Positions 216 to 34,965 of a stretch of DNA of 61,145 bases are shown here, piece after piece. A model generated the notes under the pieces. The model was not told the DNA's origin, ran no database searches, and was given only the letters and a program-made list of their open reading frames with translations. The position numbers and the translations under genes were made by a program. Source of the DNA: an uncultured Gammaproteobacteria bacterium (GTDB lineage Bacteria; Pseudomonadota; Gammaproteobacteria; SZUA-229). Position 1 is the first letter of the stretch; each line of letters begins with the position of its first letter. The stretch is from assembly GCA_963847575.1 (NCBI GenBank), contig CAWKAL010000027.1, forward strand, positions 1 through 61,145, written 5' to 3'.

Positions 216-355
216 GTCTGCATTTCTGCTCGTATTTCTTACCTTAGCACCTGCACAGCATTTCGCCACAGGGCAGGAAACCTTAATCACGGTGTGGATG
301 ACCCGGCCGGCACCCATTTTCCAACAGTCCGGCCCTGTTTATTTGACTGAATCCG

Positions 356-1630: not shown

Positions 1631-2253
1631 CAAAACTTCGATTCGAGATGCGGCTGGAATTACCCAGGTTGTTGAAGGACCAGAATGCAACCGTGGTGTA
1701 CGTAACACAAGACTACAAGGAAGCAATGGCCCTGGGAGATAACATTGCGGTTATGAACCACCAGGGTATTCAACAGTTGGGGACACCAGAAGATATTTAT
1801 TTGACGCCTGTTCATATTGAGATTGCACGCCTGTTCGGTGATCCGGTAATCAACCTGCTGGATGTGCGTCCCGAGCAGGGTGAACATGGGGTTCAGGTTC
1901 GCTTATCGGACCAAATCCTGTCTATCGATCAACGGTTTGCATCCGTCGTAGGCAAGGAATGTGTGCTGGGTATTCGGCCGGAGTCAATTCAGTTTGTGGA
2001 TGCAGGAACACCCGGATCCTTTCCCGTGATGGTTGAGGCAGAAACCCCGCTGAATGAAAAGACAGTCACGCTAGCGCTAACCGCAAAAGGACGAGAGATC
2101 ATGGTTTCCCGCCCGGCTGGCAGCCCCGGACCCGCCAGTGGGTCCGCTCATGTAGCAGTGGATTTAAGCAACGTGCTGCTATTTGACAGAAAAAGTGGCG
2201 TACGAATAGACGCGCAAACACATTTCCAGGCGCAAGCGGGGCAAGTAGCATGA
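1612..2253 (+). pseudogene. ABC transporter ATP-binding protein, C-terminal fragment only (MalK/UgpC type)
   Basis: Starts inside the signature/Walker B region (..[45 protein letters not shown]) and is followed by a TOBE-like regulatory domain. Walker A and the Q-loop are absent. Confidence 0.8.
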
Positions 2254-5969: not shown

Positions 5970-5979
5970 GGACCTGATA

Positions 5980-8551: not shown

Positions 8552-9517
8552 AGGGTAAATATTGCATCCCACGTGGTCTGGATGGGGGCTCTCAAATGTG
8601 CCATCACCATCCTCGTCGACTTCCAATTGCACATTGACTGAATCCAGCACGGTGATTTTTTCCTTCGAGCTGTCAGCGCCTGTGACTTCCATTACGCCGA
8701 CTGTAGCGTTGTTGGTATCTGTGCCTGCAAGGAAACCAGAAAACCGTCATTGTGGACATGAAATCGACTGAACCACCGATTTCCTGGCTTGAAATCGTAC
8801 CACTGGAATCCTGCGAATATGCTGGCATAGCGGGATTTGTAAAATCAAAGTTTGTGATTGCATCAAAACTGGATAATGTGCCAAAGTCGCCGGAAACCAG
8901 TTCCGAATAATCGAGAGTTGCTATTTCTACCTGGTTGGTAACATTGACACCATTATCGGTGCTGATAGTAAAAGTTGCACTGCCATTGATCGTCGTGGTT
9001 TCACCTGGCTGGGCAGTAGACAGATCGGTTGAAACAACCTCCAGGGTCAGTGAATAAGGTGGCTGCAGACTGCCAGTCAATTCCTGAACCGTCAGATTCA
9101 AGGTACCTCCCAAGGTAATCCCGTCAAGCTCCGCACAACTTTCATAATCGACCAAAATTGTTCCCCGACCGCCAAACTGCTGAGCGTTGGATCGGCGACA
9201 TCACCGGACAATGTCTGAGTGCCACTGACTCCACAACCAGTTGCCGGAAGCGTGATAACCGCGCGCGCTTGTAGAAATGAAGCGCTATTAACCTGCGGGC
9301 TCAGCAACTCTACTATCGAGCCCAGTCTCTGGGAGAACTCCCCAACGAGCCTGACGGTGGTCATTACCGCACTGGCGACGTCTACGGCGTTATCTTGCGT
9401 AATCTTAACTGTGGTGTCTGCGCCACCATCGTCATCACTACTACTGCTGCACCCACTGAACCCGATACTCATTGTAATCAATCCCACAGAGAGAATGATT
9501 TTTCTAGATGGCTTCAT
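8548..9517 (-). pseudogene. secreted lipoprotein of unknown function, split over three frames (3' end uncertain)
   Basis: MKPSRKIILSVGLITMSIGFSGC lipobox at the 5' end (ORF 9098-9529). It continues in ORF 8673-9155 and then in a third frame (GFLAGTDTNNATVGVMEVTGADSSKEKITVLDSVNVQLEVDEDGDGTFESP). The second slip lies at the A4 run 8740-8743. Confidence 0.5.
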
Positions 9518-10383
9518 GATAACCCTCACCCCAAATTGCCTAAATTAAACTGTTTATTCTTATTTGAATATACGCTTATGAGAGTGTTCTTCGTGTTGAC
9601 CTGAGTCAATTGGAAATTCACTTACTAATACAAGCCTGGTAGTCTTAAACCAGGCGTCAGATATCAGTGGCCGTTCTCCGTAGCCGAGGATGTGCTTGAG
9701 GTTACCGCGCGCAGCAGTGCTGGCAAAGAGACACGGACGGCTACACCATCCAGATGATCAAACCAATGGCTAACCAGAGCAGGAGGCTCAAACACAAGCT
9801 AACGAAAACACCCCTTGCCGCGCGCAGATCGTCTTGGAGTTCGATGTTCTCACCGACCTCGTCGCTATCGGCTTGCGCGTTCTTCGCCATCAGAATCGGC
9901 TCTAACACAATCATCAATTCCCTTTAGCAATAAACGGGAGGTGCGTACCCACTTGAGTGAGATTAATTTTCATACGCTACTACTTAGTAGTTTTGCATTG
10001 ACTGAAATCCTCTTCAACTGCACACCAGGATAGTCGCTGCCCTAAGTGGACCGGAAACTCTCACAGTCACGTCCATAAGATTGTGTTACCGGAACCCAAA
10101 GATTACCAGCTTGGTTCCCATGTTCAATCATAACCAACTCTTCAGCGAGATCGATAGTTACAATCGATAGTTCAACATTACTTGTCGACATCTCAACTGA
10201 CGATCACTGTTAATACCACTATTCCAGCATCATTAGCAAACATGAGCCATATGGCGCCATGGCAGTCAAATTGCCATCACGCTTCATGACATAACAATGA
10301 CACTCATGTGCAAGGATACTACCCGCGCGAATAACCCATCTTATGGCACACTTTTATGACGCACATGTTACTGAAATTGATGA

Positions 10384-11257
10384 CTACTGCTGTTCTCCAG
10401 CCTTACCCGCTTTCAGTATGAAAGTGGTGCCCCATGTATCGATGACAATACTACCCTCCAGTTGCGTATTGCCCTGAGCCACCAGGTCCTGCAAGGTATC
10501 GACCCGCCCGACTGATTCTGCCCATACGGCACGCGTAGCGGGCGAGTTCGCATAGTCCAGAACGCGCCTGCGTTGGCTGAGGAATTCGCTGTTCCACTCT
10601 TGTTCGCTGACTGTTGGATCATTCAGCACCGCGTTAGTCCGCTGGACAAGAGCGGGCAGCCCATCCGGATCGGGACCAAAGCCATGCTGAATCACAGTGT
10701 CATAAAGAATCAGCAACGTCAGTGGCTGTGTAGCTCCTAGCTTGCCGCTGTATTCAACCGCCCGATTGTAGTAAAGCGTATCAACCACCTCATCCTGGAT
10801 CTGATCGAAACAGCGCATCACCGGTGGCGATTTCCCACGCTGAACTCAGACCCGCCAGCGCACGGGTATCTGAACTTCCACTCCTGGCCAGTGACTTCAA
10901 TGACTTCAGAAACGGCTCCAGCACATTGCCGGGTGCCTGTTTGCTGTACAGCAATACCACTTCGTACATATCACCCGTGGCCGACGTAAAACCTGCTCGC
11001 CCGGCTGTAATACCTCGGCCGTCATCCAGCTCCTCTGCATAACCGTACTGCAAAACAGGTGTATTGTTCTCGAACACACTGATTATCTGGTCGGCAATCT
11101 GGCGCTGCGTCTCGGTAAACCGTACGCCCGGTGGACTCATCTCACTCGAGCATGCCGTACTTGCATACACGGCCAGCAGCACTGCGATAATACAAGCAAC
11201 CGTTCTGATTGAAGTTTCCCTGACCAGGAAACTTCCGAGCGAGAAACCCGAAGCCAT
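10384..11257 (-). pseudogene. GH46-type chitosanase (lipoprotein), one frameshift near 10805-10830
   Basis: N-part: FENNTPVLQYGYAEELDDGRGITAGRAGFTSATGDMYEVV. C-part: LYYNRAVEYSG..LILYDTVIQHGFGPDPDGLPALVQRTN ... RVDTLQDLV. These are colinear with the GH46 chitosanase core as I remember it. Signal with Cys (YASTAC). Confidence 0.75.
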
Positions 11258-11264
11258 TTGATTC

Positions 11265-12221
11265 TTATCGCTCGGAATCGATATCGGCAATTTCAATACT
11301 CTCGGGTGCAGGACTGGTAAGCACAGAACGAGTCAGCACCCCACCCTCGCCAACCTCGAGCAACACCGGGGCATAACGAGCATATAGCCCGGCATCCGCC
11401 GGTTTACCGGTGATAACGGCATCCCTGAATCGCCACCAATCGGCCATGCTGCCGACGGTGTCCACATACACCTCGTCATCCTCAGAGACGGTTCTAGCCA
11501 GATACTTTGTCACCTCGAACAGCTCTATCTGATCCATGAACTGTGTATGCAAACTAAAGCTGAACAAGCTATGTGCTTCCCGAATCCAGTCCAGTTCATC
11601 CTGCATGCGGGCAATCGACTTTTTCTTGCCGAGTTTCAGATCGTGCCACAGGTAGAAATCATCGGTGATGCCACGAGGAAACGACACGATGGATTTGTCA
11701 TGCCCCACCGCTCGCTTGATATGTGGTACCTGTGTCACCGTGGAGTTTTCGGCAAACAGGTGCGTCAGGCCGACATTCGCCATGGCCGAAAGAGTATTGG
11801 CGTCATGCGCCTCGGTTGGTGGCCTGAAGCCTGTGGGAACTTGTCCGGTGATTTCCGCAACTACCTTCATGCAGCGCGCCAGTCGCTCTACCTGCCCCTC
11901 CAGCGAATAGCGGGGCATGATGTCATGACTGTCACCGTGACAGGCCATTTCACCGGTCCTGGCCAGTTCACGGGTAATGGCTCGATTGTTGTTGGCCAGG
12001 TTCGACAACACATACCATGTAATCGGCAGTCCCAGTTCACCAAAGAAATCGGATACCTCCCTGGCATTTTGATAACCATCCTCGGTATCTTCTTCAAAGA
12101 AGGCGGCGTAACGTCGTCCCTCGGGCCACGTGGCTAATCCACTGAACTGCTGCTCGGTACCATAACGCACGATACCCGCCAGCAGGCTATCGAAACGTGC
12201 TTTTTCATCACCCTCCATCAT
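11265..12221 (-). CDS. polysaccharide deacetylase (NodB-homology) family protein
   Basis: 318 aa. MACHGDSHD (HxxxH-type metal motif), FRPPTEAHD, an acidic EEDTEDG segment in place of TFDD. No signal peptide is visible. Confidence 0.7.
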   Translation of the reverse strand: MMEGDEKARFDSLLAGIVRYGTEQQFSGLATWPEGRRYAAFFEEDTEDGYQNAREVSDFFGELGLPITWYVLSNLANNNRAITRELARTGEMACHGDSHDIMPRYSLEGQVERLARCMKVVAEITGQVPTGFRPPTEAHDANTLSAMANVGLTHLFAENSTVTQVPHIKRAVGHDKSIVSFPRGITDDFYLWHDLKLGKKKSIARMQDELDWIREAHSLFSFSLHTQFMDQIELFEVTKYLARTVSEDDEVYVDTVGSMADWWRFRDAVITGKPADAGLYARYAPVLLEVGEGGVLTRSVLTSPAPESIEIADIDSER

Positions 12222-12457
12222 CGTGCGAAGGGTTCACACGCTAACTCCTGAGACCTACAAAGGGGCCGCCAATTGCATCCAGCGCACGGCACAGGTGCGA
12301 CAGATTGCGGGTTACTGTGCTTCGATTCTCCCCGATAGGGATGAAACCCGGGGTAGCTGCCGTCGGGGTCTCGTTTGATCTTGGCTTGGCGGCGGTGGCG
12401 GATGAGCCGACTGGCGGCGGCTATGTCGTTGTCGTTTACAAAACAAGCGTCTGGCAT
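12218..12457 (-). CDS. hypothetical small basic protein
   Basis: AGGAGG lies 6 nt upstream of the ATG at 12457 (MPDACFVNDNDIAAASRLIRHRRQAKIKRDPDG...). The stop overlaps the deacetylase start in an ATGA. Confidence 0.3.
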   Translation of the reverse strand: MPDACFVNDNDIAAASRLIRHRRQAKIKRDPDGSYPGFHPYRGESKHSNPQSVAPVPCAGCNWRPLCRSQELACEPFAR

Positions 12458-12544
12458 GTGGGCCTCCTGAGTCTCTTGTGCCGACGCCATTCGTCAGCTA
12501 CATTCGAACGTCACGGACTCCCGTACCCTAATCAGAATCTCAAC

Positions 12545-12570
12545 GCCCTCGTTTTCGAGGGCTTCTTTTT
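12545..12570. terminator. GC hairpin with T tract (orientation ambiguous)
   Basis: GCCCTCG-TTTT-CGAGGGC followed by TTCTTTTT on the plus strand. It sits immediately 3' of the minus-strand ORF ending at 12572. Confidence 0.35.
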
Positions 12571-12571
12571 G

Positions 12572-12905
12572 TCAGCCAGCTGCAGCGATCACGTTAGCCA
12601 GCGCGACGTGCTTATGTTCACCGATCTTTGCTCTTGCCGTCAGCATCAACACGGCAAAGGCCGAATGCTCGTCACCGAAGACTTCCAACAGGTTGTTCTG
12701 AGTCTCTTCGTCCAGCTTGGGCATGCTGCGGTTCAGAACAGTGACGCATGCGCGCACGACCTCCATGTCATGCTCGAGCATGTTCGCCACACTTGGAGAG
12801 AGCCCGAAGTGCGTCAGTGGCTGAGATGAACGGGTCGTTGTCAGCAGCTGGCGGTGGTGGGCTCACTGTCGGACGCAGCTCAAAGACGTTGCTCGTGGTG
12901 TTCAT
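12572..12905 (-). pseudogene. hypothetical protein, frameshifted near 12775-12790
   Basis: AGGAG lies 8 nt upstream of the ATG at 12905 (MNTTSNVFELRPTVSPPPPAADNDPFISATDALRAL). The reading continues in ORF 12572-12790 (ANMLEHDMEVVRACVTVLNRSMPKLDEE...). Confidence 0.35.
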
Positions 12906-12930
12906 TGTTGTGCTCCTGAAAGTAGTGTTC

Positions 12931-13222
12931 TTATTTGGGTTCTTCTTTTCTCTGTGCTCGTAAAGCACATACGACGACTGCGAGTAAAGCAGTGCTAACT
13001 CCCAAATGCTCCATGCCTCCTTGGCCAAGCCCTCCACCGTCATTTCCTCGAGAACGTCGTCGCAGCAAAGAAGTAGCTTTGTGACTCGATCACGAAGCTC
13101 ATACATATTATTGCTCAACCCCGACATTTCATAGATTCCGAGTCCCAATTCCCTCGCAGGCTCCGCAGATAGGCGTCGATGTTGACAAGCCCCTCACAGG
13201 CGCCCAACAGCTCGTTGACCAT
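12931..13222 (-). pseudogene. hypothetical protein, frameshifted; ends uncertain
   Basis: ATG at 13222 (MVNELLGACEGLVNIDAYLRSLRG) slips into the frame of ORF 12768-13148 (LGLGIYEMSGLSNNMYELRDRVTKLLLCCDDVLEEM...). An alternative-frame TAA lies at 12931. Confidence 0.25.
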
Positions 13223-13337
13223 CTTGCGACCCCTTAGCGAAATTGAAGACTGTAAAGCCCCTCCGCGATCCAAAGCAGTCGAAGTTCAATGCTGTCGCCG
13301 GGTGTGTCTACCTGCAGCGGCTTGGTTGCGATTGCGC

Positions 13338-13836
13338 TCACGGCGTACCTCCGTTCTCAATAATAGGTTGTTCCGTTGCCGCTGACGATAACAAAGTCAA
13401 CTGCTCGATGGCCTCCCACGGCGTGGTATCGGGAAAACGCACCTGCAGCATAGCCAAGGGCACTTTCATTCGTCGGGGGGCAAGTCCGATGAAGACACTC
13501 CAGTCCTCTTTCAACCCGTTGTGCCACTCCTCAAGCACGGCCTCGACGTCCTCCTCACTGCCCTCAAACTGCCAGATGCCCAGCTCTCTGACACGTACCT
13601 GGGCTCTGCGCTCCCGATGCTTGGTTGAATGCCGACACGCCCTGTAGGCGCCTCTTAGCGACTGCCACGCTTGCGCAGGCAGGCTATCTACCCAGTCAGC
13701 AACAGCAGAGGCGTCATCCCAGCGTGCTCGCGCAGACCCGCCAAGACCGAGACACCACGTCCGTGCTGGATGTGCCGTCATTGATTGCTTGGCTGAGCAG
13801 GTCGATTGCGTCCTGGATGCGGTTGTCTGTTCCCAT
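13338..13836 (-). pseudogene. hypothetical protein (about 166 aa), frameshifted near 13750
   Basis: Strong RBS AAAGGAGACGATC-ATG at 13836 (MGTDNRIQDAIDLLSQAINDGTSSTDVV). The reading continues in ORF 13338-13781 (..WDDASAVADWVDSLPAQAW...IWQFEGSEEDVEAVLEEWHNGL). Confidence 0.35.
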
Positions 13837-13847
13837 GATCGTCTCCT

Positions 13848-14182
13848 TTAAAGTCTGAGCTGTTTCGCGGCAGCATGGGTTTGTTGGGTGATGTAGTCGC
13901 CCAGCGACTGGCCGTTCTTCTTGGCGACGTCTCTCAGTCGCTCAGCGGCGTTGGCGCTCAAGCTGGCACTGACCATCCCAGTGCGTGGCCCCGAGGGCAC
14001 CTTTACCACGCCTTTCTCGAGCACAAACTCGTATGCCCACAGCCGAAGCATGTCAGGCATTGTGATGCCGCGTGCCTCGGCGACAGCAGCCAGTAGGTCG
14101 GCGGTGCGTTCAGTGACCCGTGCCGACACCGTGGTGTCACGTTTCTCGCGAATGAGTTGGACGCGATCGCTAGCGGGTCCAT
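13848..14182 (-). pseudogene. tandem ribbon-helix-helix (CopG/Arc-like) DNA-binding protein, frameshifted near its 5' end
   Basis: Two beta-strand-plus-helix units: TTVSARVTERTADLLAAVAEARGITMPDMLRL and GMVSASLSANAAERLRDVAKKNGQSLGDYITQ. The ATG at 14182 is coupled (TGATG) to a 37-codon upstream ORF. The track ORF uses the GTG at 14129. Confidence 0.5.
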
Positions 14183-14275
14183 CAGTCCTCCTCGGCGGCC
14201 ATCATCACCAGAGACATTCGGGCAAGCTCTGCCCGGGCGGCTTCTTCGGCGGCTTCGCCTACTGTCTTCGCGGCA

Positions 14276-14476
14276 TTATCCAGCTGGAACCCCATCACGC
14301 TTACCCCCACTGCCGCGTTTTCGGCCGTAACGGTCGCTCCATGCTTGGTTGATCATTTGTTCAACCAGATCGGCTTGGGACATGTCGCCGCGTTCGGCCA
14401 GTTTTCTGGCTTTTTCAGCGTGCTCCGGTGAAATTTTTGTATTGAACGCCCGGGTGCGTATGGCCTTTCTAGGCAT
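14276..14476 (-). CDS. ribbon-helix-helix (CopG/MetJ/Arc-type) regulator
   Basis: 66 aa: RAFNTKISPEHAEKARKLAERGDMSQADLVEQMINQAW. First gene of the leftward operon, directly abutting the operator region. Confidence 0.55.
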   Translation of the reverse strand: MPRKAIRTRAFNTKISPEHAEKARKLAERGDMSQADLVEQMINQAWSDRYGRKRGSGGKRDGVPAG

Positions 14477-14494
14477 TGGGTTTCCCTTCGTGTT

Positions 14495-14580
14495 GTGTCT
14501 AGTAGATATGCTAGCACTATTTTTCGCAAATCGATGTGCTTCTTATTGACTGCTAGCAGAATCGCTAGTATTGTAGTCAG
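14495..14580. promoter_or_regulatory. divergent switch region: sigma70-like promoter with palindromic operators
   Basis: TTGACT (14546-14551), a 17-nt spacer, then TATTGT (14569-14574) reading rightward. The perfect 8-bp palindrome TGCTAGCA occurs twice (14509-14516 and 14551-14558), plus CGCTAGTA within the spacer. Confidence 0.45.
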
Positions 14581-14604
14581 GCAATCGCATTAGGAGACCG
14601 CGAA

Positions 14605-14900
14605 ATGCCAACTGTAACTCACGACTATCACATGACGCTGGCCGAGGTGGCCCGAGAAATCGGTGTCAGCCCAGCACGTGTGGGCAAATCGAACGGGTCG
14701 CACTGAACAAACTGCGCATCAACGCGAGGGCGCTTGGCCTCCATGTTGAGGATGTGTTCCTCGAACTCGGCCGCGAAAACGGGGGGTTCGATACGAGCAC
14801 TAAGCAACGCATGCTTCTTATTGATGCACTCATCGTTGCCGCACAAGCGATGCTGCTTGCAGCGGCGTACTTCGCCGGCTTCCACGCTGCATTGAATTGA
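14605..14900 (+). pseudogene. sigma-70 region-4-like HTH protein, frameshifted near 14685
   Basis: AGGAGA RBS 7 nt upstream. MTLAEVAREIGVSPARVG, then in the next frame QIERVALNKLRINARAL, which together form the classical region-4 HTH signature. The antisense 85-aa ORF is judged spurious. Confidence 0.45.
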
Positions 14901-14927
14901 GCCCGACTACTCAAAAGGAGACCGAAA

Positions 14928-15164
14928 ATGATTTCTGAAAAAGCACTGGTTGCCCGTATCAACCGCCGACTGGCGCATCGAGGGTTGTGCTTGCGCAAAA
15001 TGCGCTGGCCGACCACCAACGAGCTCGGCGAGTTCGTGCTGGTAGATACCTACACAAACGCCATTCAAGAAACTCATCAAGACCTGTCTTACCTGGCGAA
15101 GACCGAGCACGTATTCAGCACTCGCGATTTGCTACTCGGCAAGAACGAAGGGTGGCGCTGTTAG
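14928..15164 (+). CDS. hypothetical protein (78 aa)
   Basis: GGAGACCGAAA-ATG RBS, nearly identical to that of the preceding gene. Same-strand operon position. Confidence 0.45.
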   Translation: MISEKALVARINRRLAHRGLCLRKMRWPTTNELGEFVLVDTYTNAIQETHQDLSYLAKTEHVFSTRDLLLGKNEGWRC

Positions 15165-15204
15165 AGTCCGTCAAATCGACGGGCACTGGCCCAAGGAGGG
15201 TCTG

Positions 15205-16068
15205 ATGAAAAAGACAACACGGGTACGCGGGTTCGCTGATTGGAAGCCGACGGCTGCTTCAATTGAGGTGGTGGAGCAGATCGACAATGTCCTGGCCCAA
15301 TACCAGCAGCACTTGCCACTGACGCTCCGGCAGGTTTTCTATCGGCTGGTCGGTACTGTTGGCTACGCCAAGACGGAGAAGGCGTACAAAACAGCTCGGC
15401 GAGAAGGCCAAGCGGGGGCGGCGGGCGGGGATGATCGCCATGGACAGCTTGCGTGACGACGGTGTATTGCGCCATGGCGTGACTGCATTCGATTCCGAAG
15501 ACGCTTTCCTGGCCAGCATCAAGCAGCAGGCTGCTGACTTCCGTCTCGACCGGCAAGCCGGACAGGCACAACGCCTCTATTAAGTATGCGAGGCCGGCGG
15601 CATGGTGCCGCAGCTCGCCAGCGTGGGGGCTGACTATGGTGTGGACGCCGTCTCGACCAGCGGTTTCGACTCCGTGACGTTCAAGCACAACCTCAGTCTT
15701 GAGGCCGAGCGGTTGATTATCCTGCACGTGGGCGACCACGACCCGTCTGGGGTGCTATCGCCAGCTCACTGGGTGAGGATGTCGCGGCGTTCGGGCTGGC
15801 CTACGGGCACGACATCACCCTGGAACGGGTAGCTGTCCTGCCGGCCCACATCACCACTTACGGGCTGCCCACGGCGCCGCCCAAAAAGACTGACAAGCGG
15901 GCTTTCGCTGGCAACCAGACGGTGCAGGCTGAAGCCCTGGACCCCGGTGTGCTGGCGCAGCTCGTTGAAGACGCCATCGTGCGGCACATTGATGAGGGGA
16001 TACGCCTTGGCGTAATCGCTGATGAGGCACAGATACGGACCGATCTGATTCGCCGAATAGGCAAGTAG
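15205..16068 (+). pseudogene. winged-helix + Toprim protein (TopoVI-A/Spo11/JetD-CTD-like), with two frameshifts and one in-frame TAA
   Basis: AGGAGGG RBS. N-terminus LPLTLRQVFYRLVGTVGYAKTEKAYK (candidate 5Y-CAP tyrosine). Toprim Glu in VCEAGGM and DxD in ILHVGDHDPSG. C-terminus YGLPTAPPKKTDKRAFAGNQTVQAEALDP. Slips lie near 15385-15395 and at the G4 run 15749-15752. TAA at 15581-15583. Confidence 0.45.
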
Positions 16069-16287
16069 TAAACACTTATTCATGCCCGTTTTATGTACGG
16101 CGGGCACTGCTCAAATACGTGTGTACGTTATGAGTATAACTTACTCATTTCACCCCATTCTGCATGCGCTGAAACGCTATTCATTGCTGTGAAGGTGTTA
16201 CCAGGAAGAAGTGCTTGGGACAAGTCAATTAGTGTGCTACAAAAGATTCAGAGGCTATCGGTTGAGAACATTCTCGAGAGGACAGAC

Positions 16288-16595
16288 ATGAGCAACGAAC
16301 TGCCTAGTTCAATCGCATCGCGGTTCTGGAAGGCGGCACTGGATTCGCTGTGGACGCGCGCGAGGAGACCGCAGTCATTTTGATCCGCAACGTTCTCTGG
16401 CTCAGCAAACAGAAGCTGCCAGCCGCACGCTATGCCGCCAACGGCCGCATCATGTATTCCGGCCGCACGATCCAACACGTTTTTAATCGCATGAACGCCG
16501 GCAAGCTCGATACGCTGCATACGGCCGAGTTGGGCGACGAAATCATCGAGTCGCCAAGCCGCGTAGAACCCGCTGGCCGCGAAGAGGCCGCGTAA
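16288..16595 (+). pseudogene. hypothetical protein, frameshifted near 16365 (strand assignment uncertain)
   Basis: GAGAGGA RBS before the ATG at 16288 (MSNELPSSIASRFWKAALDSLW). It continues in ORF 16350-16595. A 136-aa antisense ORF (16248-16658) competes with it. Confidence 0.25.
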
Positions 16596-16772
16596 TGGAT
16601 TTCCTGTCCCGGGGACGCCGGGCAGTAATGCCTGCGGAGCAAGCAGCGTGAGCTGCACGCCGATGAAGCAGGGGAAGATTCTCGCGCCGTTTAGGCGGGG
16701 AAGGAGTCAAGTATCGATGAGAACGCATGAGGAAATTGTGCGCCGCGTCTGCGGCATTGGGGGGTGGAGAGC

Positions 16773-17301
16773 ATGAAGGTTTATCTGGCCGGGAAAGTTG
16801 ATAAGGCCGGCACTCGCGACGAACCCTCCTGTGGCAGCAAGTGGGACGTGATTGAGCCGCTGGCTGAGTATCATCAGTTCGTTGCTGTGGATGGTGGTGA
16901 GGACTTCCAGCCAGAACACTGCGGCGGTTCCAGCTATAAGGAGGCGTGGCTCGAGGTGTCTCTTGACCCAGGCAATACAAACCCCGAGCCGGCTTTTGCA
17001 TCCGAGAAAGCAGTTGAAAGTACTGGCCGCCTGCGATGCACTGGTCGCCTACCTGGACACGCCTGACTCGTATGGCTCAGTTGCAGAGATCGCATGGGCT
17101 GCTGCAAAAGGGCTTCCCTGTTTGGTCGTGCTACGAGGGGTTCGTGCGGGTGTGAAGTCGCATGATGAGCAGATGGCAGATGCCTACTGGTTCGTTGCGC
17201 AGTTGCCGCATGTGGACGCCGAGGTAGTGGAGAACCGTGACGAGACCGTGGGCGTGATCGCGCGGTTCCTGTCTGCAGTCAAGAGAGAGGCAGCGGCGTG
17301 A
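16773..17301 (+). pseudogene. nucleoside 2-deoxyribosyltransferase-like (SLOG-superfamily) protein, frameshifted near 17000
   Basis: MKVYLAGKV... N-terminus, and ACDALVAYLDTPDSYGSVAEIAWAAAKGLPCLVVL (the family's Glu-containing motif) in the second frame. Confidence 0.5.
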
Positions 17302-17750
17302 GAAGCCAAACATCCCAGCGTAGCCCGCTTTTTGAGGGCACGGGCAGTGCCGAAGTGGAGCGGCTGAATGATGCCATCCTCACAGGGAGTGCTGAGGAAA
17401 TCGAATAAGCAGCGGCATAAGCCGCACAAAATAAGACCCTGCCAAAGTAGCGGGGTCGAGGATAAATACACAGCAACTGTGCAACCAAGCGTGGGGCACC
17501 AGCCGGAAGCGCATCTTTAGGAGCAATGAAATCAAACAGTTTTACTACTCAGGCGTTTCAGGCCAAAAACGATGCATTTCCATTGTAGCCCGATTCGCCT
17601 CTCGACCAAAGTTTTAGAGGTGATTTCATGTCCACACCATTCGGTCCAGACGACCTTAACCAGAAAGAACTGGCAGCCGCACGCGGCGTAAAGCAAGGCC
17701 AGCTGCAGAAGAAGCAGTCATGAGGTTTTGTCGAGTTCAAGCCTGACGAC

Positions 17751-20063
17751 GTGCCGGAGATCATGCGCAGCACACCGCGTTGGTGCGTATGGCGATACAT
17801 ACAGAAGAAAGGCAAGTTGAAGCCCGACAAAGTCCCGTGTGATGCCAGCGGCAAGCTCGTGGGGTATGGCGAGGCCGGGACAATGGCCTTCGACGACGCA
17901 GTTGCCCGCTTCAAATCGGACCCGAACATGTTCGCTGGCATCGGCCTCGCCCTGTCACCAGACGACGACATTCAGTGCATCGACCTGGACCGCGTTATCC
18001 AGCGCGCCGAAGGCAAGGCAAGCATCGCGGACGCAGATGCCGAACGTATCGTCAAGCAGGCGAGGGCAGAGGGCGCCTGGACCGAAATCAGCCCCTCGGG
18101 TATTGGCCTCCACATCTGGGTTCGTGGGCAGTTGTCCGGCAGCCCTTCGTCAAAACAGACGGGGCATAATGGCGCAGTCCTCGAGGCGTTCAGCTCGGGC
18201 CGATTCATCGCAGTGACGGGCAAGCAGTTGGGCGCCACTGGTGGTGTAGTTTACTCACAAGGCCTCATCGACACGACGCTCGACGCGATCAAGCGGCGTG
18301 GTGGCAACGTCACATCAGCACCACCGGCTACTGATGATGACTTTTTCGAAGAGGCCTCGGTTGACGGGCCATCAGCCAAAGTTACTCAGCGCCGGATGTT
18401 TTCAAAGACACCAACAACCTGAGCGCGGGGATTGAAGCGTCCCGGTGGGACTCCCTGCCTGGTGAGGACAAGGACAAACTGCTCGCCATCATCCTCGCAG
18501 CTGCTCCAAAAAAGGCGTGGTTCAACAAGCCTAATGGCGGCGGCATCGACCCTTGGCTGACGTTGCTTTCAGGCCGCAGCGCGCTCGGGGGCTCCTCGTG
18601 CCTACGAGATATTCCGTGCCTTCTCATATAAAGACGGCGACCCGCGCACTGGCTTTAACGAGAGGGAGATACGAAGCCGCTGGCAGAACGCCCTCAAGAC
18701 AGCGGATGACCCCAAGGCAGTCACCATTGGCAGCCTTATTCGCTATGCCAGGGAGTGGATACCCGAGTGGTCCTGGGATTCCTGGGGCCAGTCCAAGCCA
18801 GCTTTGGTACAGAAGTCCACAGGGGGCGGCACAGACCTTTTCAACGAGCCGGCCATAGGAGAGACCCGTACGCCCGAAGAAAGGCACACGAGCCTCTTCG
18901 ACACAGCGAAGCCCCTATCGGTTCGTGACGCCATGGCCCCGCCGCCCCGTGACTGGGTGGTCGATGACCACTTTGCAGCGGGCACGCTGGCCGTCCTGGG
19001 CGGCTTCGGCGGCACCAGTAAGACCATGCTGGCACTGCAACTCGGCGTCGGCCTTGCCATCGCCCACAAGCCGCACAAGCCCTACCACACCGCCCCAGCC
19101 GTGGCCGCAGGGATGGACATCCCCAAAGCTGGCAACTCACTCATCATTCTGGGGGAGGAAGACGCTGGGGAGCGTGACCGCCGTGTGGGGGCTATCCACC
19201 AACACATCACCGAGGGCTATCCGAACTTCGTCAAACGCCGCTACCTGAACCTTATTAAGAAGCACTGCGAGACCATCCCCGCTGCCGGTAGGCGGATTTC
19301 TCTGACTAAGCTGGCGAACGGCAACCTGACCTGGACCCCTCTGGTTCAGGACACTATCGACCGTGCAAAATCCCTCGCGGCCAAAACCGGCAGCCCAACC
19401 CGCCTGATTGTTTTCGACCACGCACGTCTGATCGCCGGTGGGGGCGAACTGAACAGCGCCGAAGACGCCACGGTATTGACAACGGCCCTGACCCACATCG
19501 CCCAGGAGACCGGCGCTTGTGTCCTGCTACTGGCGCACAGCCCCAAGTCCAGCATGGGCGACGCTGGGAAGAACGCCGACCACGGCTCAATCGCACACTC
19601 CACGGCGTTCGTGGACAACGCTCGTGCTGCCTTCGTCCTACGGACGATGGACGAGAAAACCGCCGCCAAACTCGACCTCGGCAGCAAGGACCGACACTCT
19701 TTCGTGCAGTTGATGACGGTGAAGAACAACTACGCCGGATACCAAGAGCACTGGCTCGAGCGAGTCAGCATCTCCAGCCACCACGTCAGCCTGCTGGATA
19801 GCTGGGATGCCCCGATGAAGCAGAAAGACACTGGTCCGTCGCAGCAGGATGTGGCGGACGACGCCATGGCCCGACAAATAGCCAGAGATTTGGTGGCCAA
19901 GTCACCCGGCCGCTGGACGGCCACGAAGCTAAAGGAAGAGGTGAAGGCGCAGGCCAAACTGCCACAGCGCGATGCTAACCGAGTGGTTGATGACATGCTC
20001 GATGGGGGAGAGCTGGCGTCACGGACGATCACTCAGGAGGATCGCAAAGCATACCGTCGTTAG
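17751..20063 (+). pseudogene. fused primase-polymerase (prim-pol) / primase C-terminal region / AAA_25 RepA-DnaB-like helicase, with two compensating frameshifts
   Basis: Prim-pol: RWCVWRY..KPDKVP..GIGLAL..IQCIDLDRV..WTEISPSGIGLHIWVRG..GRFIAVTG. Linker, read in another frame between about 18365-18420 and the G5 run at 18587-18591. Helicase: WVVDDHFAAGTLAVLGGFGGTSKTMLALQLG (Walker A), LIVFDHARL (Walker B), CVLLLAHSPKS. Confidence 0.75.
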
Positions 20064-20208
20064 CCACGACCAAGAAAGGGCGGGTGCTGGAGTTGCCCAG
20101 TATTGGACCGGGAGTGGCCCCGGTGGCCGAGGGAGATGAGGGCGACCTAAATGACCTCGAACTGGAATGAGCTGCCCCCCATCCGGGGGTATTAAATAAG
20201 GACCAGAC

Positions 20209-20240
20209 GGCCGAGGACACCCCTCGGCCTGTTTGTTTTT
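20209..20240 (+). terminator. rho-independent terminator after the primase-helicase gene
   Basis: GGCCGAGG-ACACC-CCTCGGCC followed by TGTTTGTTTTT. Confidence 0.55.
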
Positions 20241-20736
20241 GGCCGTAGAGTGCTAGTAGTTAAGGCGAGAATTCAGCCGTGGTGTGAGTAACTTATGAGT
20301 ATTTTTTGGCCCAAAAAAGGCCAAAATGCTGCCTTTTGCGCCAACGGTAGAATGCGGGCTCAGAAGCATCACGATTTTTGAATTTTTAAAGTTGATTTTT
20401 TAATCTGATGTTTTTGAGGCCTTGCGACGTGAGGAGCTAGAAGTTCTAGTTTATTGTACTTTGAAGTTACTATTTGAGTGTTTATGTTTCTTTTGAACCT
20501 TGAGGCATAAGGGCTCTGAAAAACACGATTAAGCATCACTGAAATTACCTCCCTCTGATGCTTCTAGGCTTTGAGGCATAAGAGTTAAAAAAGAACATCA
20601 AACGAATCGACGTCCCCTTCAGGACGATTCGCGCATGGAGCGCGAAGACATGGCCGCCCGCTGTTGGCGAGGGGACTTGGCGACAGTTCGTTGCTAGTAG
20701 TGAGAAAAAATATTGTATGTATGAATGAGTAAAATG

Positions 20737-20880
20737 TGTTTGGGTGACGTCGTGACAGGGAGGTGGTGCGACGTTATGACAAAGAAGCTGGGTGACAGTG
20801 TGGCGTCATAGCTTGGTGACAGGAAGGTAGAGGGGCAGGGTGACGCCATGGCTTGGTGGCGGTGTGACCCGGTGTTAACA
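20737..20880 (+). repeat. six iterons with (T/G)GGTGAC core at exact 24-bp spacing
   Basis: TGAC/CGAC cores begin at 20745, 20769, 20793, 20817, 20841 and 20865. Four units carry perfect GGTGAC, and two carry GGTGCGAC / GGTGTGAC. The array ends at the ATG of the next gene. Confidence 0.6.
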
Positions 20881-22560
20881 ATGACCCGGTGTATTGGCTC
20901 CGATCCATCGATTCGATTGATGGTGCGCCATGTTCTTGAGTCGGAAGATTTTGATATCATCGAAGCTGCAGATGGCCTGGAAGCCATCAAGGCTGTCGAA
21001 AAACATAACCCGGCATTGATCCTGCTTGATGCCGTCATGCCCGGCCTGGATGGATTTACCACCTGCCAGCAAATCAAGGACAAAGGTTTCAAGGACATTC
21101 CGGTGATCATGATTACCGGCCTGGATGATGATGCCTCTGTCGAACGTGCCTACGAAGTCGGTGCAATCGACTTTATAACCAAACCTATCAAATGGGCCGT
21201 GCTCAAACACCGGGTACGTTCAGTCGTTGCCAAGGTGGTCGCCGAGCGCAAGGTCAAACTGCTTGCCTATCGTGACACGCTCACCCAGTTACCCAATCGC
21301 CTGTTGTTTGCTGATCGCCTTGAACAGGCCGTGATACGCGCCGAACGAAATCGCGAAGCGATGGCATTAATGCTGATTGATCTGGATGATTTTAAACTGG
21401 TGAACGATTCATTCGGCCACGAAGCCGGTGACAAATTGATCAAGGCAATTGGGCAGTTGCTGTCCAGCTCACTACGTCGTGCCGATACTGTCGCGCGACT
21501 GGGTGGGGATGAATTCGCTGTTATTGTAGAGAGTATCGATGATGCCGACGACGCAATTTCGATCGCGGATAATCTCACTACAATTCTCGAACATAATGTC
21601 AAACTCGATGATCAGGAAACCTTTACCAGTGCCAGCGTGGGAATCGCGGTGTATCCCTATGACGGTAAAGATGCACGTACACTTTTGAAAAACGCTGACA
21701 CCGCGATGTTCCGTGCCAAGGAAAAAGGCCGCCACTGTTTCCAGTTTTATAAACCGGAAATGAGTGTGACTGCAATGGAGCGGCTTGATCTTGAAAACAG
21801 CATGCGCCGGGCGCTGCAGAATGATGAGTTCGTGGTGCATTACCAGCCGGTGGTCGATTTACACCGAAATGAAGTCGCTGGTGTGGAAGCACTGATACGC
21901 TGGCAGCATCCCGATAAAGGCATCATTATTCCCAATGACTTTATCCCACTGGCGGAAGACTGCGGTTTAATTATTCCAATCGGTGAGTGGCTGATCAGCA
22001 CGGTGTGTCGCCAGCTTAAACAATGGCATGAAGCCGGTCTGGAACAACATAATGTATCGATCAATATCGGTGCGCGTCAATTCCGCGATCAGGATCTTGT
22101 TGGCCTGTTTAAACGTGAACTGGCGGATAACAATATCGATGCAGCCAATATCACCATCGAAGTGACTGAAAGTACCTTGATCGAAAACGTGGGTGAAGTT
22201 GAAAAAGTGCTGATTAAGCTTCACGAGATGGGTATGACCATATCCCTCGATGATTTTGGAACCGGTTTTGCATCGCTGGCTTATCTAAAGGACTTTCCCG
22301 TAGAAATAGTCAAGATTGATCGCGAATTCATCGCCGGCATTCCTGACAGCGAAACCGACTCGGCGATTGTCTCGGCCATTGCCGGACTGACGCGCGGGCT
22401 GAAATTAAAGTTGCTGGCTGAAGGCGTTGAAAATGACCGTCAGCTGGAAATGCTCAAGGGGCTCGGTTGCCAGCTGGGACAGGGTTTTTACTGGAGCAAG
22501 GCACTGCCGCCCGATCAGTATGAGCAATTTTATCTCAACCGCTTTTATAATCTCGGATAA
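20881..22560 (+). CDS. response-regulator receiver + GGDEF + EAL protein
   Basis: LILLDAVMPGLDG (phospho-acceptor Asp), RLGGDEFAV, EALIRWQHP, DDFGTG. Start taken at MTRCIGSDPSIRLM (ATG at 20881). Confidence 0.85.
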   Translation: MTRCIGSDPSIRLMVRHVLESEDFDIIEAADGLEAIKAVEKHNPALILLDAVMPGLDGFTTCQQIKDKGFKDIPVIMITGLDDDASVERAYEVGAIDFITKPIKWAVLKHRVRSVVAKVVAERKVKLLAYRDTLTQLPNRLLFADRLEQAVIRAERNREAMALMLIDLDDFKLVNDSFGHEAGDKLIKAIGQLLSSSLRRADTVARLGGDEFAVIVESIDDADDAISIADNLTTILEHNVKLDDQETFTSASVGIAVYPYDGKDARTLLKNADTAMFRAKEKGRHCFQFYKPEMSVTAMERLDLENSMRRALQNDEFVVHYQPVVDLHRNEVAGVEALIRWQHPDKGIIIPNDFIPLAEDCGLIIPIGEWLISTVCRQLKQWHEAGLEQHNVSINIGARQFRDQDLVGLFKRELADNNIDAANITIEVTESTLIENVGEVEKVLIKLHEMGMTISLDDFGTGFASLAYLKDFPVEIVKIDREFIAGIPDSETDSAIVSAIAGLTRGLKLKLLAEGVENDRQLEMLKGLGCQLGQGFYWSKALPPDQYEQFYLNRFYNLG

Positions 22561-34778: not shown

Positions 34779-34965
34779 AAATAATTATTATCCACGGATG
34801 AACGCAGATGAACACGGATTAAAGCAAAAAAAGTATTGTTTTAGTTAAACACGCTGCGCGTGTAACAGTGTCTCTACATAACAATAAGCGCCATTCCCGT
34901 AAACATTCGACAACTTAATTTTTATCCGTGTTCATCTGCGTTCATCTGTGGACAATTATTATTTA
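34779..34965. repeat. MITE-like element: about 45-bp terminal inverted repeats around an approximately 97-bp core
   Basis: Left arm ..AATTATTATCCACGGATGAACGCAGATGAACACGGAT.. (34779-34823) is the near-perfect reverse complement of the right arm (34921-34965). It fills the gap between convergent genes. Confidence 0.55.

What the first reader, a model, noticed from the sequence alone, without database searches (positions are those of the whole stretch)
20209..20880. Putative origin of replication: terminator, an approximately 25% GC tract, then six iterons with perfect 24-bp phasing
Directly 3' of the replicase gene come a terminator (20209-20240) and a very AT-rich stretch (20381-20420 is 9/40 GC by my count). 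That stretch contains repeated TTGAGGCATAAG(G/A)G (20503 and 20571) and several short hairpins. Then comes an array in which TGAC/CGAC cores recur at 20745, 20769, 20793, 20817, 20841 and 20865. Four units read GGTGAC and two read GGTG(C/T)GAC. Exact 24-bp phasing of a conserved hexamer with variable spacers is the hallmark of initiator-binding iterons. The core also resembles the reverse complement (GGTGAACA) of the P4 type I iteron TGTTCACC as I remember it. Iterons plus an AT-rich unwinding region next to a pri-rep gene is the SaPI/PICI ori layout.
Basis: partly seen in the sequence, partly recalled or inferred. Interest (0 to 1): 0.65.

Follow-up and report, generated by a model that had tools for sequence, protein, structure and literature searches.

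The report
Probable replication origin cut by a breakpoint
The repeat array is real and most likely belongs to the replication origin of a small foreign replicon that encodes its own primase-helicase, but it ends at a breakpoint inside the neighbouring gene, probably an assembly misjoin, so the origin may be incomplete.

Summary
There is a terminator-like hairpin at 20209-20240 and AT-rich tracts down to 24% GC. TGAC/CGAC cores sit at exactly the six stated positions. That phasing is far beyond chance (about 0.002 such runs expected in 61 kb; 0 of 5000 shuffles).

Three new facts change the picture.
- The array has an 8-bp base period (about 19 units nnGTGRCn), with every third unit best kept.
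- It runs up to a synteny breakpoint at 20900/20901. All 68 relatives of the REC-GGDEF-EAL gene, and contigs 100% identical to the window's right side, carry 24 more codons there. They carry none of window 1-20900.
- The block holds no integrase or transposase domain in 12218-17200, no att repeat, and 1-nt indel errors. The "broken" replicase is probably an assembly artefact.

The gene at 17751-20063 is an AEP primase fused to an RSF1010 RepA-type helicase. Its 35-41% relatives carry clustered short repeats directly 3' of the gene. The closest clade uses GGTGTG/TTGGTGTGAC motifs like the window's core.

Best reading (0.5): origin iterons plus an unwinding region, analogous to SaPI, IncQ and pRN1 origins, and possibly truncated. 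Rivals are element-end recombinase sites, sites for a gene lost beyond the break, and a functionless repeat. It is not a host regulatory array. Interest is modest.

The parts
17751..20063 (+). Replicase gene: AEP-type primase (N-terminus), PriCT-like linker, RSF1010 RepA-type SF4 helicase (AAA_25) and a small helical C-terminal domain. It is one reading frame, apart from a short out-of-frame stretch at about 18380-18560 that creates two in-frame stops.
   Evidence: In-frame translation. PHROG DNA primase/helicase E 1e-25 for the N-terminal part. Pfam AAA_25 E 1.6e-20. PDB 1G8Y RepA E 7e-33 by profile. Foldseek 1NLF/1G8Y TM 0.79. C-terminal domain: best fold matches are HTH/winged-helix proteins, but none is significant.
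20209..20240 (+). Intrinsic-terminator-like hairpin with a T-run, 146 nt after the replicase stop codon
   Evidence: z = -3.9
20350..20600 (.). AT-rich tract 1 (24-44% GC) with its own short repeats: TTGAGGC x3 (20413, 20500, 20571) and AAGCATCA x3 (20364+, 20531+, 20556-)
20416..20443 (+). Outlying copy resembling array unit 2 (71% over 28 nt; core GCGACGT), on the far side of most of AT-rich tract 1
   Evidence: (family D2)
20601..20692 (.). GC-rich, 92-nt imperfect stem-loop with a perfect inner hairpin TTCGCGC-ATGGA-GCGCGAA (20628-20646). It also holds CGACGTCCCC (20608, inverted relative to unit 1) and CTTGGCGACAGT (20676, unit-like).
   Evidence: z = -3.1 on the + strand, -2.7 on the - strand; D4, I10
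20696..20741 (.). AT-rich tract 2 (about 30% GC), directly abutting the array; candidate unwinding element
20742..20900 (+). Repeat array: six 24-bp units (20742-20885) with conserved GnG(T/C)GAC...RTG. It is built on about 19 tandem 8-bp units nnGTGRCn that continue to the breakpoint. All units are direct, and the + strand is G-rich.
20900..20901 (.). Synteny breakpoint: foreign ...TATTGGCTC | CGATCCATCG... host gene. The wild-type sequence reads ...GCCGATGA | CGATCCATCG.
20901..22560 (+). 5'-truncated REC-GGDEF-EAL gene. It lacks the first 24 codons, including the conserved DD of LADDDPSIRL. The apparent ATG at 20848 lies in the foreign DNA.

Best explanation
Window 20209-20900 is the 3' non-coding tail of a foreign replication module (block about 12218-20900). 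The module's single large gene fuses an AEP primase, an SF4 RepA-type hexameric helicase and a small C-terminal helical domain. I take the region to be that module's replication origin.

Inferred mechanism: the replicase binds the short GTGAC-core repeats (about 19 8-bp units, every third best conserved), probably through its C-terminal domain. It assembles as a hexamer and opens the adjacent AT-rich DNA (20696-20741 and/or 20350-20600). It then loads itself and primes with its own primase. No DnaA box is present, which fits a self-loading initiator. The 92-nt stem-loop at 20601-20692 may be a priming or loading signal, like the stem-loop origin of pRN1.

Shown here: the anatomy, the statistics, the protein domains, and the presence of repeat clusters 3' of the gene in relatives. 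Inferred: binding, melting and origin activity.

The array stops at a breakpoint (20900/20901) that is probably an assembly misjoin between two genomes. A second, oppositely oriented half of the origin could therefore be missing.
For: 1. Position: the region is non-coding and 3' of the primase-helicase gene.
2. The array is highly non-random and unique in the window.
3. Its 8-bp base period excludes a coding repeat. Conservation is in blocks (GTGAC, then RTG), as in protein-binding sites.
4. AT-rich tracts flank it.
5. Unit-like copies also lie at 20416-20443, 20608 and 20676.
6. Relatives at 35-41% identity show the same logic. L215/L216 and L217 have 6-8 copies of AAGCCGCC/GGCGGCTT in both orientations around an A-rich centre, starting at the rep stop codon. 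L075 has TCGCTCGCC x4 plus GGCGAGCGA x2.
7. The clade closest in architecture (P0003 and P0005; loci L069-73 and L214) concentrates GTGGTGTG, TTGGTGTGAC and TTGGTGTGGGG within 160 nt of the stop codon. In L069, 3 of the 4 GGTGTG in 7.4 kb lie there. This resembles the window core CTTGGTGAC / GGTGTGACC.
8. There is no DnaA box (up to 1 mismatch), IHF site or GATC. That is compatible with a self-loading helicase origin as described for SaPIs (PMC9371898).
9. pRN1 precedent: its origin is a terminator plus a 100-nt stem-loop 3' of a primase-helicase gene (PMC4234260).
10. The array is absent upstream of the GGDEF-EAL gene in the 33 relatives inspected, and no locus matches window 1-20900.
Against: - In the relatives the repeats begin within about 30 nt of the stop codon, occur in both orientations, are irregularly spaced and span about 200 nt. 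In the window, 20064-20208 has no such repeats and a terminator intervenes.
- The array starts 680 nt after the stop codon and is strictly unidirectional.
- A 24-bp spacing is 2.3 helical turns, so it is not face-aligned. Plasmid Rep cooperativity is sensitive to helical phase (PMC4980987).
- No close relative of the block exists anywhere searched, so the array's conservation cannot be tested.
- The winged-helix assignment of the C-terminal domain is not significant.
- The array sits at the very edge of the block, which is equally what element-end sites would look like.
- There is no experimental evidence of any kind.
Confidence: 0.5

Rival explanations
1. The repeats are binding sites for a protein whose gene lay beyond the breakpoint in the true source genome. 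Three versions fit. (a) A classical plasmid-type origin, ordered AT-rich element, then direct iterons, then a rep gene. (b) A centromere-like partition site in front of par genes. (c) an operator array of a repressor.
For: The order AT-rich tract (20696-20741), then evenly spaced direct repeats all in one orientation, then [sequence ends], is the canonical iteron-plasmid or parC-like arrangement (for the general features). It is unlike the bidirectional repeats next to the relatives' rep genes. The 8-bp pattern runs right up to the break, so something has probably been cut off. From memory only, the F-plasmid RepE iteron core is TGTGACA; I could not verify this in the library.
Against: No Rep_3, Par or repressor gene is visible, and none can be, because the sequence ends. 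There are no DnaA boxes. A 24-bp or 8-bp period is atypical for 17-22-bp plasmid iterons. The nearest replication gene is the primase-helicase, and the repeats of its closest clade share the GGTG core.
Confidence: 0.2
2. The junction at 20900/20901 is a real insertion end. The terminal 160 bp would then be an array of recombinase-binding sites, either arm-type sites of a tyrosine integrase or subterminal transposase sites, and not an origin.
For: The array occupies exactly the last 160 bp of the foreign block. Related islands are compact: a P4-like integrase with an arm-binding domain, then a few ORFs, then rep. In L217 the first host-type gene (an HU-like gene) begins 676 nt after the rep stop. 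A 15/16 direct match to 20849-20864 lies near the block's left edge at 12382-12397, together with GGTGCGAC at 12294.
Against: Six-frame Pfam finds no integrase or transposase domain in 12218-17200, and the rest of the block is the replicase. There is no tRNA fragment or att-type direct repeat, and no inverted copy of the array anywhere in the window. The displaced 5' end of the REC gene is absent from the contig. The left flank belongs to a lineage that does not co-occur with the right flank. In the one relative whose ends are defined (L215), the repeats next to rep are 3.3 kb from the att site.
Confidence: 0.15
3. The array is a functionless expansion of a short tandem repeat (an 8-mer or 24-mer minisatellite), or is partly shaped by long-read assembly noise, in an otherwise ordinary intergenic region.
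For: The 8-bp base period and about 50% unit identity look like an old, decaying tandem duplication. The contig carries indel errors. No homologue is available to show conservation.
Against: Decay is not uniform. Positions 3-7 of every third unit (GTGAC) are nearly invariant while the rest is free, which suggests selection on a motif. Unit-like copies occur outside the tandem block. The closest replicase clade has a related motif at the equivalent place.
Confidence: 0.1
4. The array is a host regulatory array (promoter/operator) of the REC-GGDEF-EAL gene.
For: Only its position immediately 5' of the gene's conserved part, and an in-frame ATG at 20848.
Against: All 68 relatives match the window only from residue 19 on. 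The 33 whose upstream sequence was printed, including one at 98% amino-acid identity, have unrelated upstream DNA plus 24 extra N-terminal codons (MxNVVxLFxDxQKYEERPxVxLADD). No locus matches window 1-20900. Contigs 100% identical to the window's right side continue with that wild-type 5' end. The window's version lacks the receiver domain's first strand and its DD acidic pair.
Confidence: 0.02

Closest known systems
SaPI / PICI replication origins (Staphylococcus aureus pathogenicity islands; Ubeda et al. 2007 and 2012, as summarised in PMC9371898)
   Same: The origin lies 3' of a primase/helicase-initiator gene. It is made of 6-12 short (5-6 nt) closely spaced iterons plus an AT-rich region. 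No host initiator boxes are needed, because the helicase loads itself through a C-terminal DNA-binding domain.
   Different: SaPI iterons start immediately after rep and flank a central AT-rich region in opposite orientations. Here the array is 680 nt away and unidirectional. By the paper's own contrast with SF4 relatives, SaPI Rep is not an SF4 helicase, whereas this one is SF4 RepA-type. Six-frame Pfam of 12218-17200 finds no integrase, and no packaging or repressor module was recognised in the block.
IncQ plasmids (RSF1010) oriV with RepA helicase, RepB' primase and RepC initiator
   Same: The helicase is a clear structural and sequence relative of RSF1010 RepA (profile E 7e-33, TM 0.79). 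From my own knowledge, IncQ oriV also combines tandem direct iterons with GC-rich and AT-rich segments and hairpin priming signals (ssiA/ssiB). The window has direct repeats, a GC-rich stem-loop and AT-rich tracts.
   Different: IncQ has three separate proteins, and iterons of 20-22 bp in 3.5 copies bound by RepC. Here primase and helicase are fused, the primase is AEP-type, no RepC homologue was seen, and the repeat period is 8/24 bp.
Satellite phage P4 ori/crr and alpha protein
   Same: One multifunctional protein (primase + helicase + origin binding) acts on octamer iterons. The 8-bp unit size is similar.
   Different: From my own knowledge, P4 alpha is a DnaG-like primase plus an SF3 helicase, which are different families. 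The P4 octamer TGTTCACC (sequence from memory, not verifiable in the library) has no match with up to 1 mismatch in 20064-20900.
pRN1 (Sulfolobus) origin
   Same: A prim-pol/helicase replicase is followed by a terminator and then a stem-loop of about 100 nt that is the origin (PMC4234260). The window has a terminator at 20209 and a 92-nt stem-loop at 20601-20692 (z = -3.1).
   Different: pRN1 is an archaeal plasmid with an SF3 helicase, and no iteron array is described. Here the stem-loop is only one of several features.
Uncharacterised tRNA-integrating islands that encode the homologous AAA_25 replicase (loci L214, L215, L217; proteins P0005, P0018, P0010)
   Same: The replicase family is the same (34-39% identity), and repeat clusters lie 3' of the gene.
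   Different: Those islands have a P4-like integrase. In L215 a 48-bp tRNA-Thr att repeat is also present. Their repeats are bidirectional and abut the stop codon. The window block has none of these features.

Membership tests
SaPI/PICI-type origin | Iterons located immediately downstream of the rep ORF | tested here: not met
   The rep stop codon is at 20063. 20064-20208 has no repeats, a terminator lies at 20209, and the array starts at 20742.
SaPI/PICI-type origin | Six to twelve short (penta/hexanucleotide) iterons | tested here: met
   Six well-kept G(T/C)GAC cores, and 12 of the first 17 8-bp units have T-G at positions 4-5.
SaPI/PICI-type origin | A central AT-rich region with at least 2 iterons on each side pointing in opposite directions | tested here: not met
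   The position-weight-matrix scan finds all array copies on the + strand and no inverted copy in 20064-20900. Only a weak inverted 10-mer lies at 20608. Caveat: the sequence is cut at 20900.
SaPI/PICI-type origin | Rep of the SaPI helicase type with a C-terminal winged-helix domain | tested here: not met
   The helicase core is RSF1010 RepA / DnaB-like SF4. The C-terminal domain's fold matches are HTH/winged-helix-like but not significant (E at least 0.6).
SaPI/PICI-type origin | Rep binds and melts the origin, and the origin supports replication | not testable with these tools
   Needs EMSA, footprinting and a replication assay.
PICI / P4-like integrative island | An integrase gene and att direct repeats bounding the element | tested here: not met
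   Six-frame Pfam of 12218-17200 gives no integrase or transposase. There is no att-like repeat and no tRNA nearby.
P4 ori | Type I octamer iterons TGTTCACC | tested here: not met
   No match with up to 1 mismatch in 20064-20900. The octamer sequence itself is from memory (one search found no source).
P4 ori | An alpha-type replicase (DnaG-like primase + SF3 helicase) | tested here: not met
   The gene encodes an AEP-type primase (PHROG) plus an SF4 RepA-like helicase.
IncQ-type replicon | A RepA-family hexameric helicase | tested here: met
   1G8Y profile E 7e-33. Foldseek TM 0.79. tblastn finds 28% identity to plasmid RepA genes.
IncQ-type replicon | 20-22-bp tandem iterons bound by a separate RepC initiator, plus ssiA/ssiB | tested here: not met
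   The period is 8/24 bp. No DNA similarity to any plasmid was found. No RepC-like domain was found in the block. ssi function is not testable.
Classical iteron plasmid origin (Rep_3 / RepA-pi-RepE type) | Tandem direct repeats at regular spacing next to an AT-rich unwinding element | tested here: met
   Six units at exactly 24 bp abut the 30%-GC tract 20696-20741.
Classical iteron plasmid origin (Rep_3 / RepA-pi-RepE type) | DnaA box(es) in the origin | tested here: not met
   No TTATCCACA with up to 1 mismatch in 20064-20900.
Classical iteron plasmid origin (Rep_3 / RepA-pi-RepE type) | An adjacent gene for a winged-helix Rep initiator | not testable with these tools
   The source sequence is interrupted at 20900, and no public run or contig holds the block.

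The most novel reading that the evidence does not exclude
The junction at 20900/20901 is real. A replicative element without a recognisable integrase or transposase has inserted into codon 24 of a response-regulator gene. Its terminal 8-bp/24-bp repeat array would then serve both as the origin's initiator-binding sites and as the end recognised for insertion. That would make it an element whose primase-helicase-bound terminus mediates both replication and integration.
Probability: 0.06. Interest if true: 0.6.

Novelty: new member of a known kind. Interest (0 to 1): 0.3.

Why it matters
If confirmed, this would be one more example of a self-contained replicon: a fused primase-helicase with an adjacent short-iteron origin. 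It comes from an uncultured sediment bacterium, in a replicase clade with no characterised member and no close relative in public data. The comparison with relatives suggests a general rule for this AAA_25/RepA-type family: short repeats directly 3' of the gene, with clade-specific motifs. That rule could help annotate origins in many small tRNA-integrating islands.

There is also a practical lesson. The apparent "island next to a GGDEF-EAL gene" is not a clean biological insertion. The gene is truncated, and the two sides of position 20900 do not occur together elsewhere. Any functional story built on that adjacency, such as regulation of c-di-GMP signalling or island boundaries, would be unsafe until raw reads are checked.

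Tried and rejected
- **Host regulatory array: rejected.** All 68 relatives of the gene match only from residue 19. The 33 whose upstream sequence was inspected lack the array and have 24 extra N-terminal codons.
- **att or target-site duplication, or an inverted terminal copy of the array in the window: none.** Only a 15/16 direct match at 12382, of uncertain meaning.
- **Integrase or transposase in the block: none.** Six-frame Pfam of 12218-17200. PHROGs on the ORFs gave only primase, helicase, a weak Toprim hit and a deoxyribosyltransferase.
- **Rfam over 12000-21500:** nothing near a gathering score.
- **Public runs holding the block:** none. An exact 24-mer of the array in JGI metagenome contigs gave no match. 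The junction could therefore not be verified with reads.
- **Exact-protein look-ups for window genes:** not on record.
- **Pattern GGTGAC-N18-GGTGAC-N18-GGTGAC in viral contigs:** more than 120 hits. None encodes a replicase homologue, so they look like unrelated repeats. Dead end.
- **Replicase relatives in viral contigs:** only 23-28% identical over most of the protein, too distant to compare origins.
- **Plasmid database:** no DNA similarity to 20209-20900.
- **Coding repeat: rejected.** One minus-strand frame is open through the array (68 codons, 'SP' every 8 aa). However, the base period is 8 nt and conservation is in blocks, not codon-like.
- **'Two error regimes' as proof of a chimera: weakened.** The right part also has frameshifts, at about 28235, 29150 and 39370.
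- **tRNA-like pseudo-att site at the junction (TGG-N13-ATTCGA):** considered and dropped as post hoc. The ATTCGA is simply the Ile-Arg codons of the REC gene.
- **Winged-helix fold of the replicase C-terminal domain:** the fold search was inconclusive.
- **Literature check of the P4 and F iteron sequences:** not found in the library.
Full report
**1. What is in the sequence**

- An 8-bp G+C-rich hairpin at 20209-20229 is followed by TGTTTGTTTT (DNA fold z = -3.9).
- GC falls to 24% in 20375-20424 and 26% in 20450-20499. It falls again to 32-36% in 20675-20749.
- TTGAGGCATAAG(G/A)G occurs at 20500 (not 20503) and at 20571.
- TGAC/CGAC cores lie at 20745, 20769, 20793, 20817, 20841 and 20865.

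GGTGAC occurs four times in this stretch, and no other cluster exists on either strand of the 61-kb window. A run of six in-phase GAC at one period is found only here and in a 12-nt coding repeat at 47028. By my own arithmetic about 0.002 such runs are expected in 61 kb. Autocorrelation at lag 24 is 0.525, against a shuffle maximum of 0.384 +/- 0.021 (0 of 5000).

Two refinements follow.
- All strong lags are multiples of 8 (16, 24, 32, 40, 48, 56). The array is about 19 tandem 8-bp units nnGTGRCn, of which every third is best kept (consensus of the 24-mers: GnG(T/C)GAC...RTG).
- An 8-nt period excludes a coding repeat, even though one minus-strand frame happens to be open through the array.

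Unit-like copies also lie outside the tandem block, at 20416-20443, 20608 (inverted) and 20676. Between the two AT-rich tracts there is a 92-nt imperfect stem-loop at 20601-20692 (z = -3.1), with a perfect inner hairpin. There are no DnaA boxes, IHF consensus sites or GATC sites, and no Rfam match.

**2. The gene next to it**

17751-20063 is a single reading frame. A short out-of-frame stretch at about 18380-18560 produces two in-frame stops.
- The N-terminus is a phage/plasmid-type DNA primase (PHROG E 1e-25).
- The C-terminal 419 residues carry AAA_25. They match the RSF1010 RepA hexameric helicase by profile (1G8Y, E 7e-33) and by predicted fold (TM 0.79).
- The last ~75 residues (from about 347 of the 419-aa ORF) form a small helical domain. 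Its best fold matches are HTH/winged-helix DNA-binding domains, but none is significant.

The contig carries 1-nt indel errors throughout.
- Related short-read contigs differ by single-base indels at 2462, 8589 and 8744.
- X1 contigs, from a run holding the same strain, differ by single-base indels at 29153 and 42518.
- Relatives reveal frameshifts at about 28235, 29150 and 39370.

The "broken" replicase is therefore most likely an assembly artefact and not a pseudogene.

**3. The surroundings: a breakpoint, not an island next to an intact gene**

I fetched 68 loci that encode relatives of the REC-GGDEF-EAL protein. All of them match only from the window ORF's residue 19 onward. The best locus, L001, is 98% identical in protein and 93% in DNA.

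In the 33 relatives whose upstream sequence I printed, the gene begins 24 codons earlier (M-x-NVV-x-LF-x-D-x-QKYEERP-x-V-x-LADD | DPSIRLM). DNA homology to the window starts at 20901. Nothing in up to 10 kb upstream of any relative matches window 1-20900, at DNA or protein level.

Assembled contigs from four public sediment runs settle the wild-type state. These include two runs (X1, X4) that are 100% identical to the window from 20901 rightwards. All continue leftwards with ...AGAGCGCCCTATTGTAATTCTTGCCGATGA, which is the wild-type 5' end. The window's gene therefore lacks the first strand and the DD acidic pair of its receiver domain. Its apparent ATG at 20848 lies in foreign DNA.

The origin of the two sides:
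- No public run holds 17700-20890, and no JGI metagenome contig holds a 24-mer of the array.
- The left part, 2001-12217, is an erythritol-type catabolic locus. Its best protein hits are 64-69% identical, in Hyphomicrobiales, Rhizobiaceae and Granulosicoccus.
- That left part occurs at 95-99% identity in runs X11 and X12. One X12 contig leaves the window at 12217.
- Run X1 covers the right part evenly at depth 2-4 but covers none of the left part.
- The block 12218-20900 differs in tetranucleotide usage from both flanks (r about 0.6).
- Six-frame Pfam finds no integrase or transposase domain in 12218-17200. There is no att-like repeat and no nearby tRNA.

My reading is that 20900/20901 is more likely a misjoin in a noisy long-read metagenome assembly (roughly 60-65%) than a real rearrangement or insertion. 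I could not test this, because the source reads are not available. Either way, the array sits at the very edge of the block and may be truncated.

**4. Comparative evidence on function**

The replicase has no close relative in 5.8 billion proteins; the best is 41% identical. The array itself therefore cannot be traced. The family can still be examined.
- In L215/L216 (P0018) and L217 (P0010), the rep stop codon is followed at once by 6-8 copies of AAGCCGCC/GGCGGCTT, in both orientations around an A-rich centre.
- In L075 (P0002) it is followed by TCGCTCGCC x4 and GGCGAGCGA x2.
- In L069-73 (P0003) and L214 (P0005) it is followed by GTGGTGTG, TTGGTGTGAC and TTGGTGTGGGG motifs in both orientations, then a conserved hairpin.
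- In L069, 3 of the 4 GGTGTG in 7.4 kb lie within 350 nt of the stop codon.

That motif shares its GGTG core with the window's CTTGGTGAC and GGTGTGACC. These elements are small islands with a P4-like integrase. L215 is bounded by a 48-bp tRNA-Thr repeat, and its repeat cluster is internal, 3.3 kb from the att site.

This is the SaPI logic: 6-12 short iterons 3' of rep, an AT-rich centre and a self-loading helicase (PMC9371898). Here it is realised with an unrelated SF4 helicase.

The window differs from its relatives in three ways. Nothing repeat-like follows the stop codon directly. A terminator intervenes. The array is 680 nt away, strictly direct and evenly spaced.

**5. Explanation and rivals**

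- **Best reading (0.5).** This is the origin region of the primase-helicase replicon. The GTGAC repeats are initiator-binding iterons, the abutting AT-rich DNA is the unwinding element, and the stem-loop is a possible priming or loading signal (compare pRN1, PMC4234260). The origin is possibly incomplete because of the break.
- **Rival 1 (0.2).** The repeats are sites for a gene lost beyond the break. This could be a classical iteron origin in front of a rep gene, a partition centromere or an operator array. The layout AT-rich, then direct evenly spaced repeats, then [cut] fits this at least as well as it fits the relatives' bidirectional pattern.
- **Rival 2 (0.15).** The junction is a genuine element end and the repeats are recombinase-binding sites.
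- **Rival 3 (0.1).** The array is a decaying tandem repeat without function.
- **Host regulatory array (0.02).** This is refuted.

**6. Comparison with known systems**

The region works like a SaPI/PICI or P4 origin: one multifunctional replicase with short iterons beside its gene. It is not a member of either family.
- The helicase is SF4 RepA (IncQ) type.
- The primase is AEP-type.
- The P4 octamer is absent with up to 1 mismatch in 20064-20900.
- The SaPI hallmarks of immediate adjacency and opposed iteron sets are not met in the available sequence.

It shares the helicase with IncQ plasmids, but not their 20-22-bp iterons or a RepC initiator. It has no DNA similarity to any plasmid in PLSDB.

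**7. Verdict**

I rate it a new member of a known kind, of modest interest (0.3).

Noticed in passing
window 20848-22560: The REC-GGDEF-EAL ORF is a fusion. Its first 18 codons (MAWWRCDPVLTMTRCIGS) come from the foreign block. The true gene's first 24 codons, including the receiver domain's DD pair, are missing, so the gene as assembled is probably non-functional.
   Followed up: yes
window 2462, 8589, 8744, ~18380-18560, ~28235, ~29150, ~39370, 42518: Single-base indels or frameshifts relative to short-read contigs and relatives occur all along the contig. At least two lie next to homopolymers. This is the signature of a noisy long-read assembly, so several 'split' genes (ABC ATPase, GH46 chitosanase, replicase) are probably intact in reality.
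   Followed up: partly
window 1-12217: The left flank holds sugar-ABC ATPase fragments, an FGGY kinase annotated as erythritol kinase in relatives (64-69% identical to Hyphomicrobiales, Rhizobiaceae and Granulosicoccus), a 2-hydroxyacid dehydrogenase, a GlpD-like oxidoreductase, a class II aldolase, a GH46 chitosanase and a polysaccharide deacetylase. It is found in runs X11 and X12 but not in X1, which holds the right flank.
   Followed up: partly
window 15205-16100: A gene spread over three frames carries a GDHDPSG Toprim-like motif (weak PHROG topoisomerase hit, E 5e-4). Its function in the block is unknown.
   Followed up: no
window 16852-17301: A nucleoside 2-deoxyribosyltransferase-like ORF (Pfam E 3.5e-4, PHROG E 7e-5) lies just upstream of the replicase.
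   Followed up: no
window 20596-20610 and 20908-20922: A 15-nt inverted repeat (14/15 complementary) has one arm in the foreign block and the other in the REC gene, straddling the breakpoint. By my estimate about 0.01 such pairs are expected by chance in this 750-nt region. Its meaning is unknown.
   Followed up: no
window 12382-12397 vs 20849-20864: A 15/16 direct match (TGGCTTGG(C/T)GGCGGTG) links the left edge of the block and the array. GGTGCGAC also occurs at 12294 and 20765. This could be chance or a remnant of end-related sites.
   Followed up: partly
window 44389-44557, 46129, 47010-47090, 42641, 60385-60600: Other periodic arrays (periods 12, 15, 18, 24, 27, 33 and 36 nt) overlap listed ORFs and are probably repeat-containing proteins. 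The ORFs were not examined further.
   Followed up: no
window 45343-45999 and 34671-35337: Depth is extremely high in all four metagenome runs (up to about 1240x against 0-5x elsewhere). These stretches are shared by many organisms or are multicopy (a very conserved gene or a mobile sequence).
   Followed up: no
L215 5741-15187: A 9.4-kb island (P0018 is named Rhodoferax sp. by NCBI) is bounded by a 48-bp tRNA-Thr direct repeat. Its order is P4-like integrase, HigBA, small ORFs, AAA_25 replicase, then a bidirectional AAGCCGCC repeat cluster at 11690-11900. A second 21-bp repeat (GCTTACATCCGCCGTTACATC) lies near both ends.
   Followed up: partly
L069 5360-5400 and L214 3825-3870: A conserved hairpin (CCCGTCCCTTGCGGGAC) lies 3' of the repeat cluster in two replicase relatives. 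The window has a similar GTCC-loop-GGAC hairpin at 20612-20626.
   Followed up: no
window 58829-61087: A tRNA cluster (Pro-TGG, His-GTG, Lys-CTT, Leu-TAG) lies at the right end of the contig. It is unrelated to the block.
   Followed up: no
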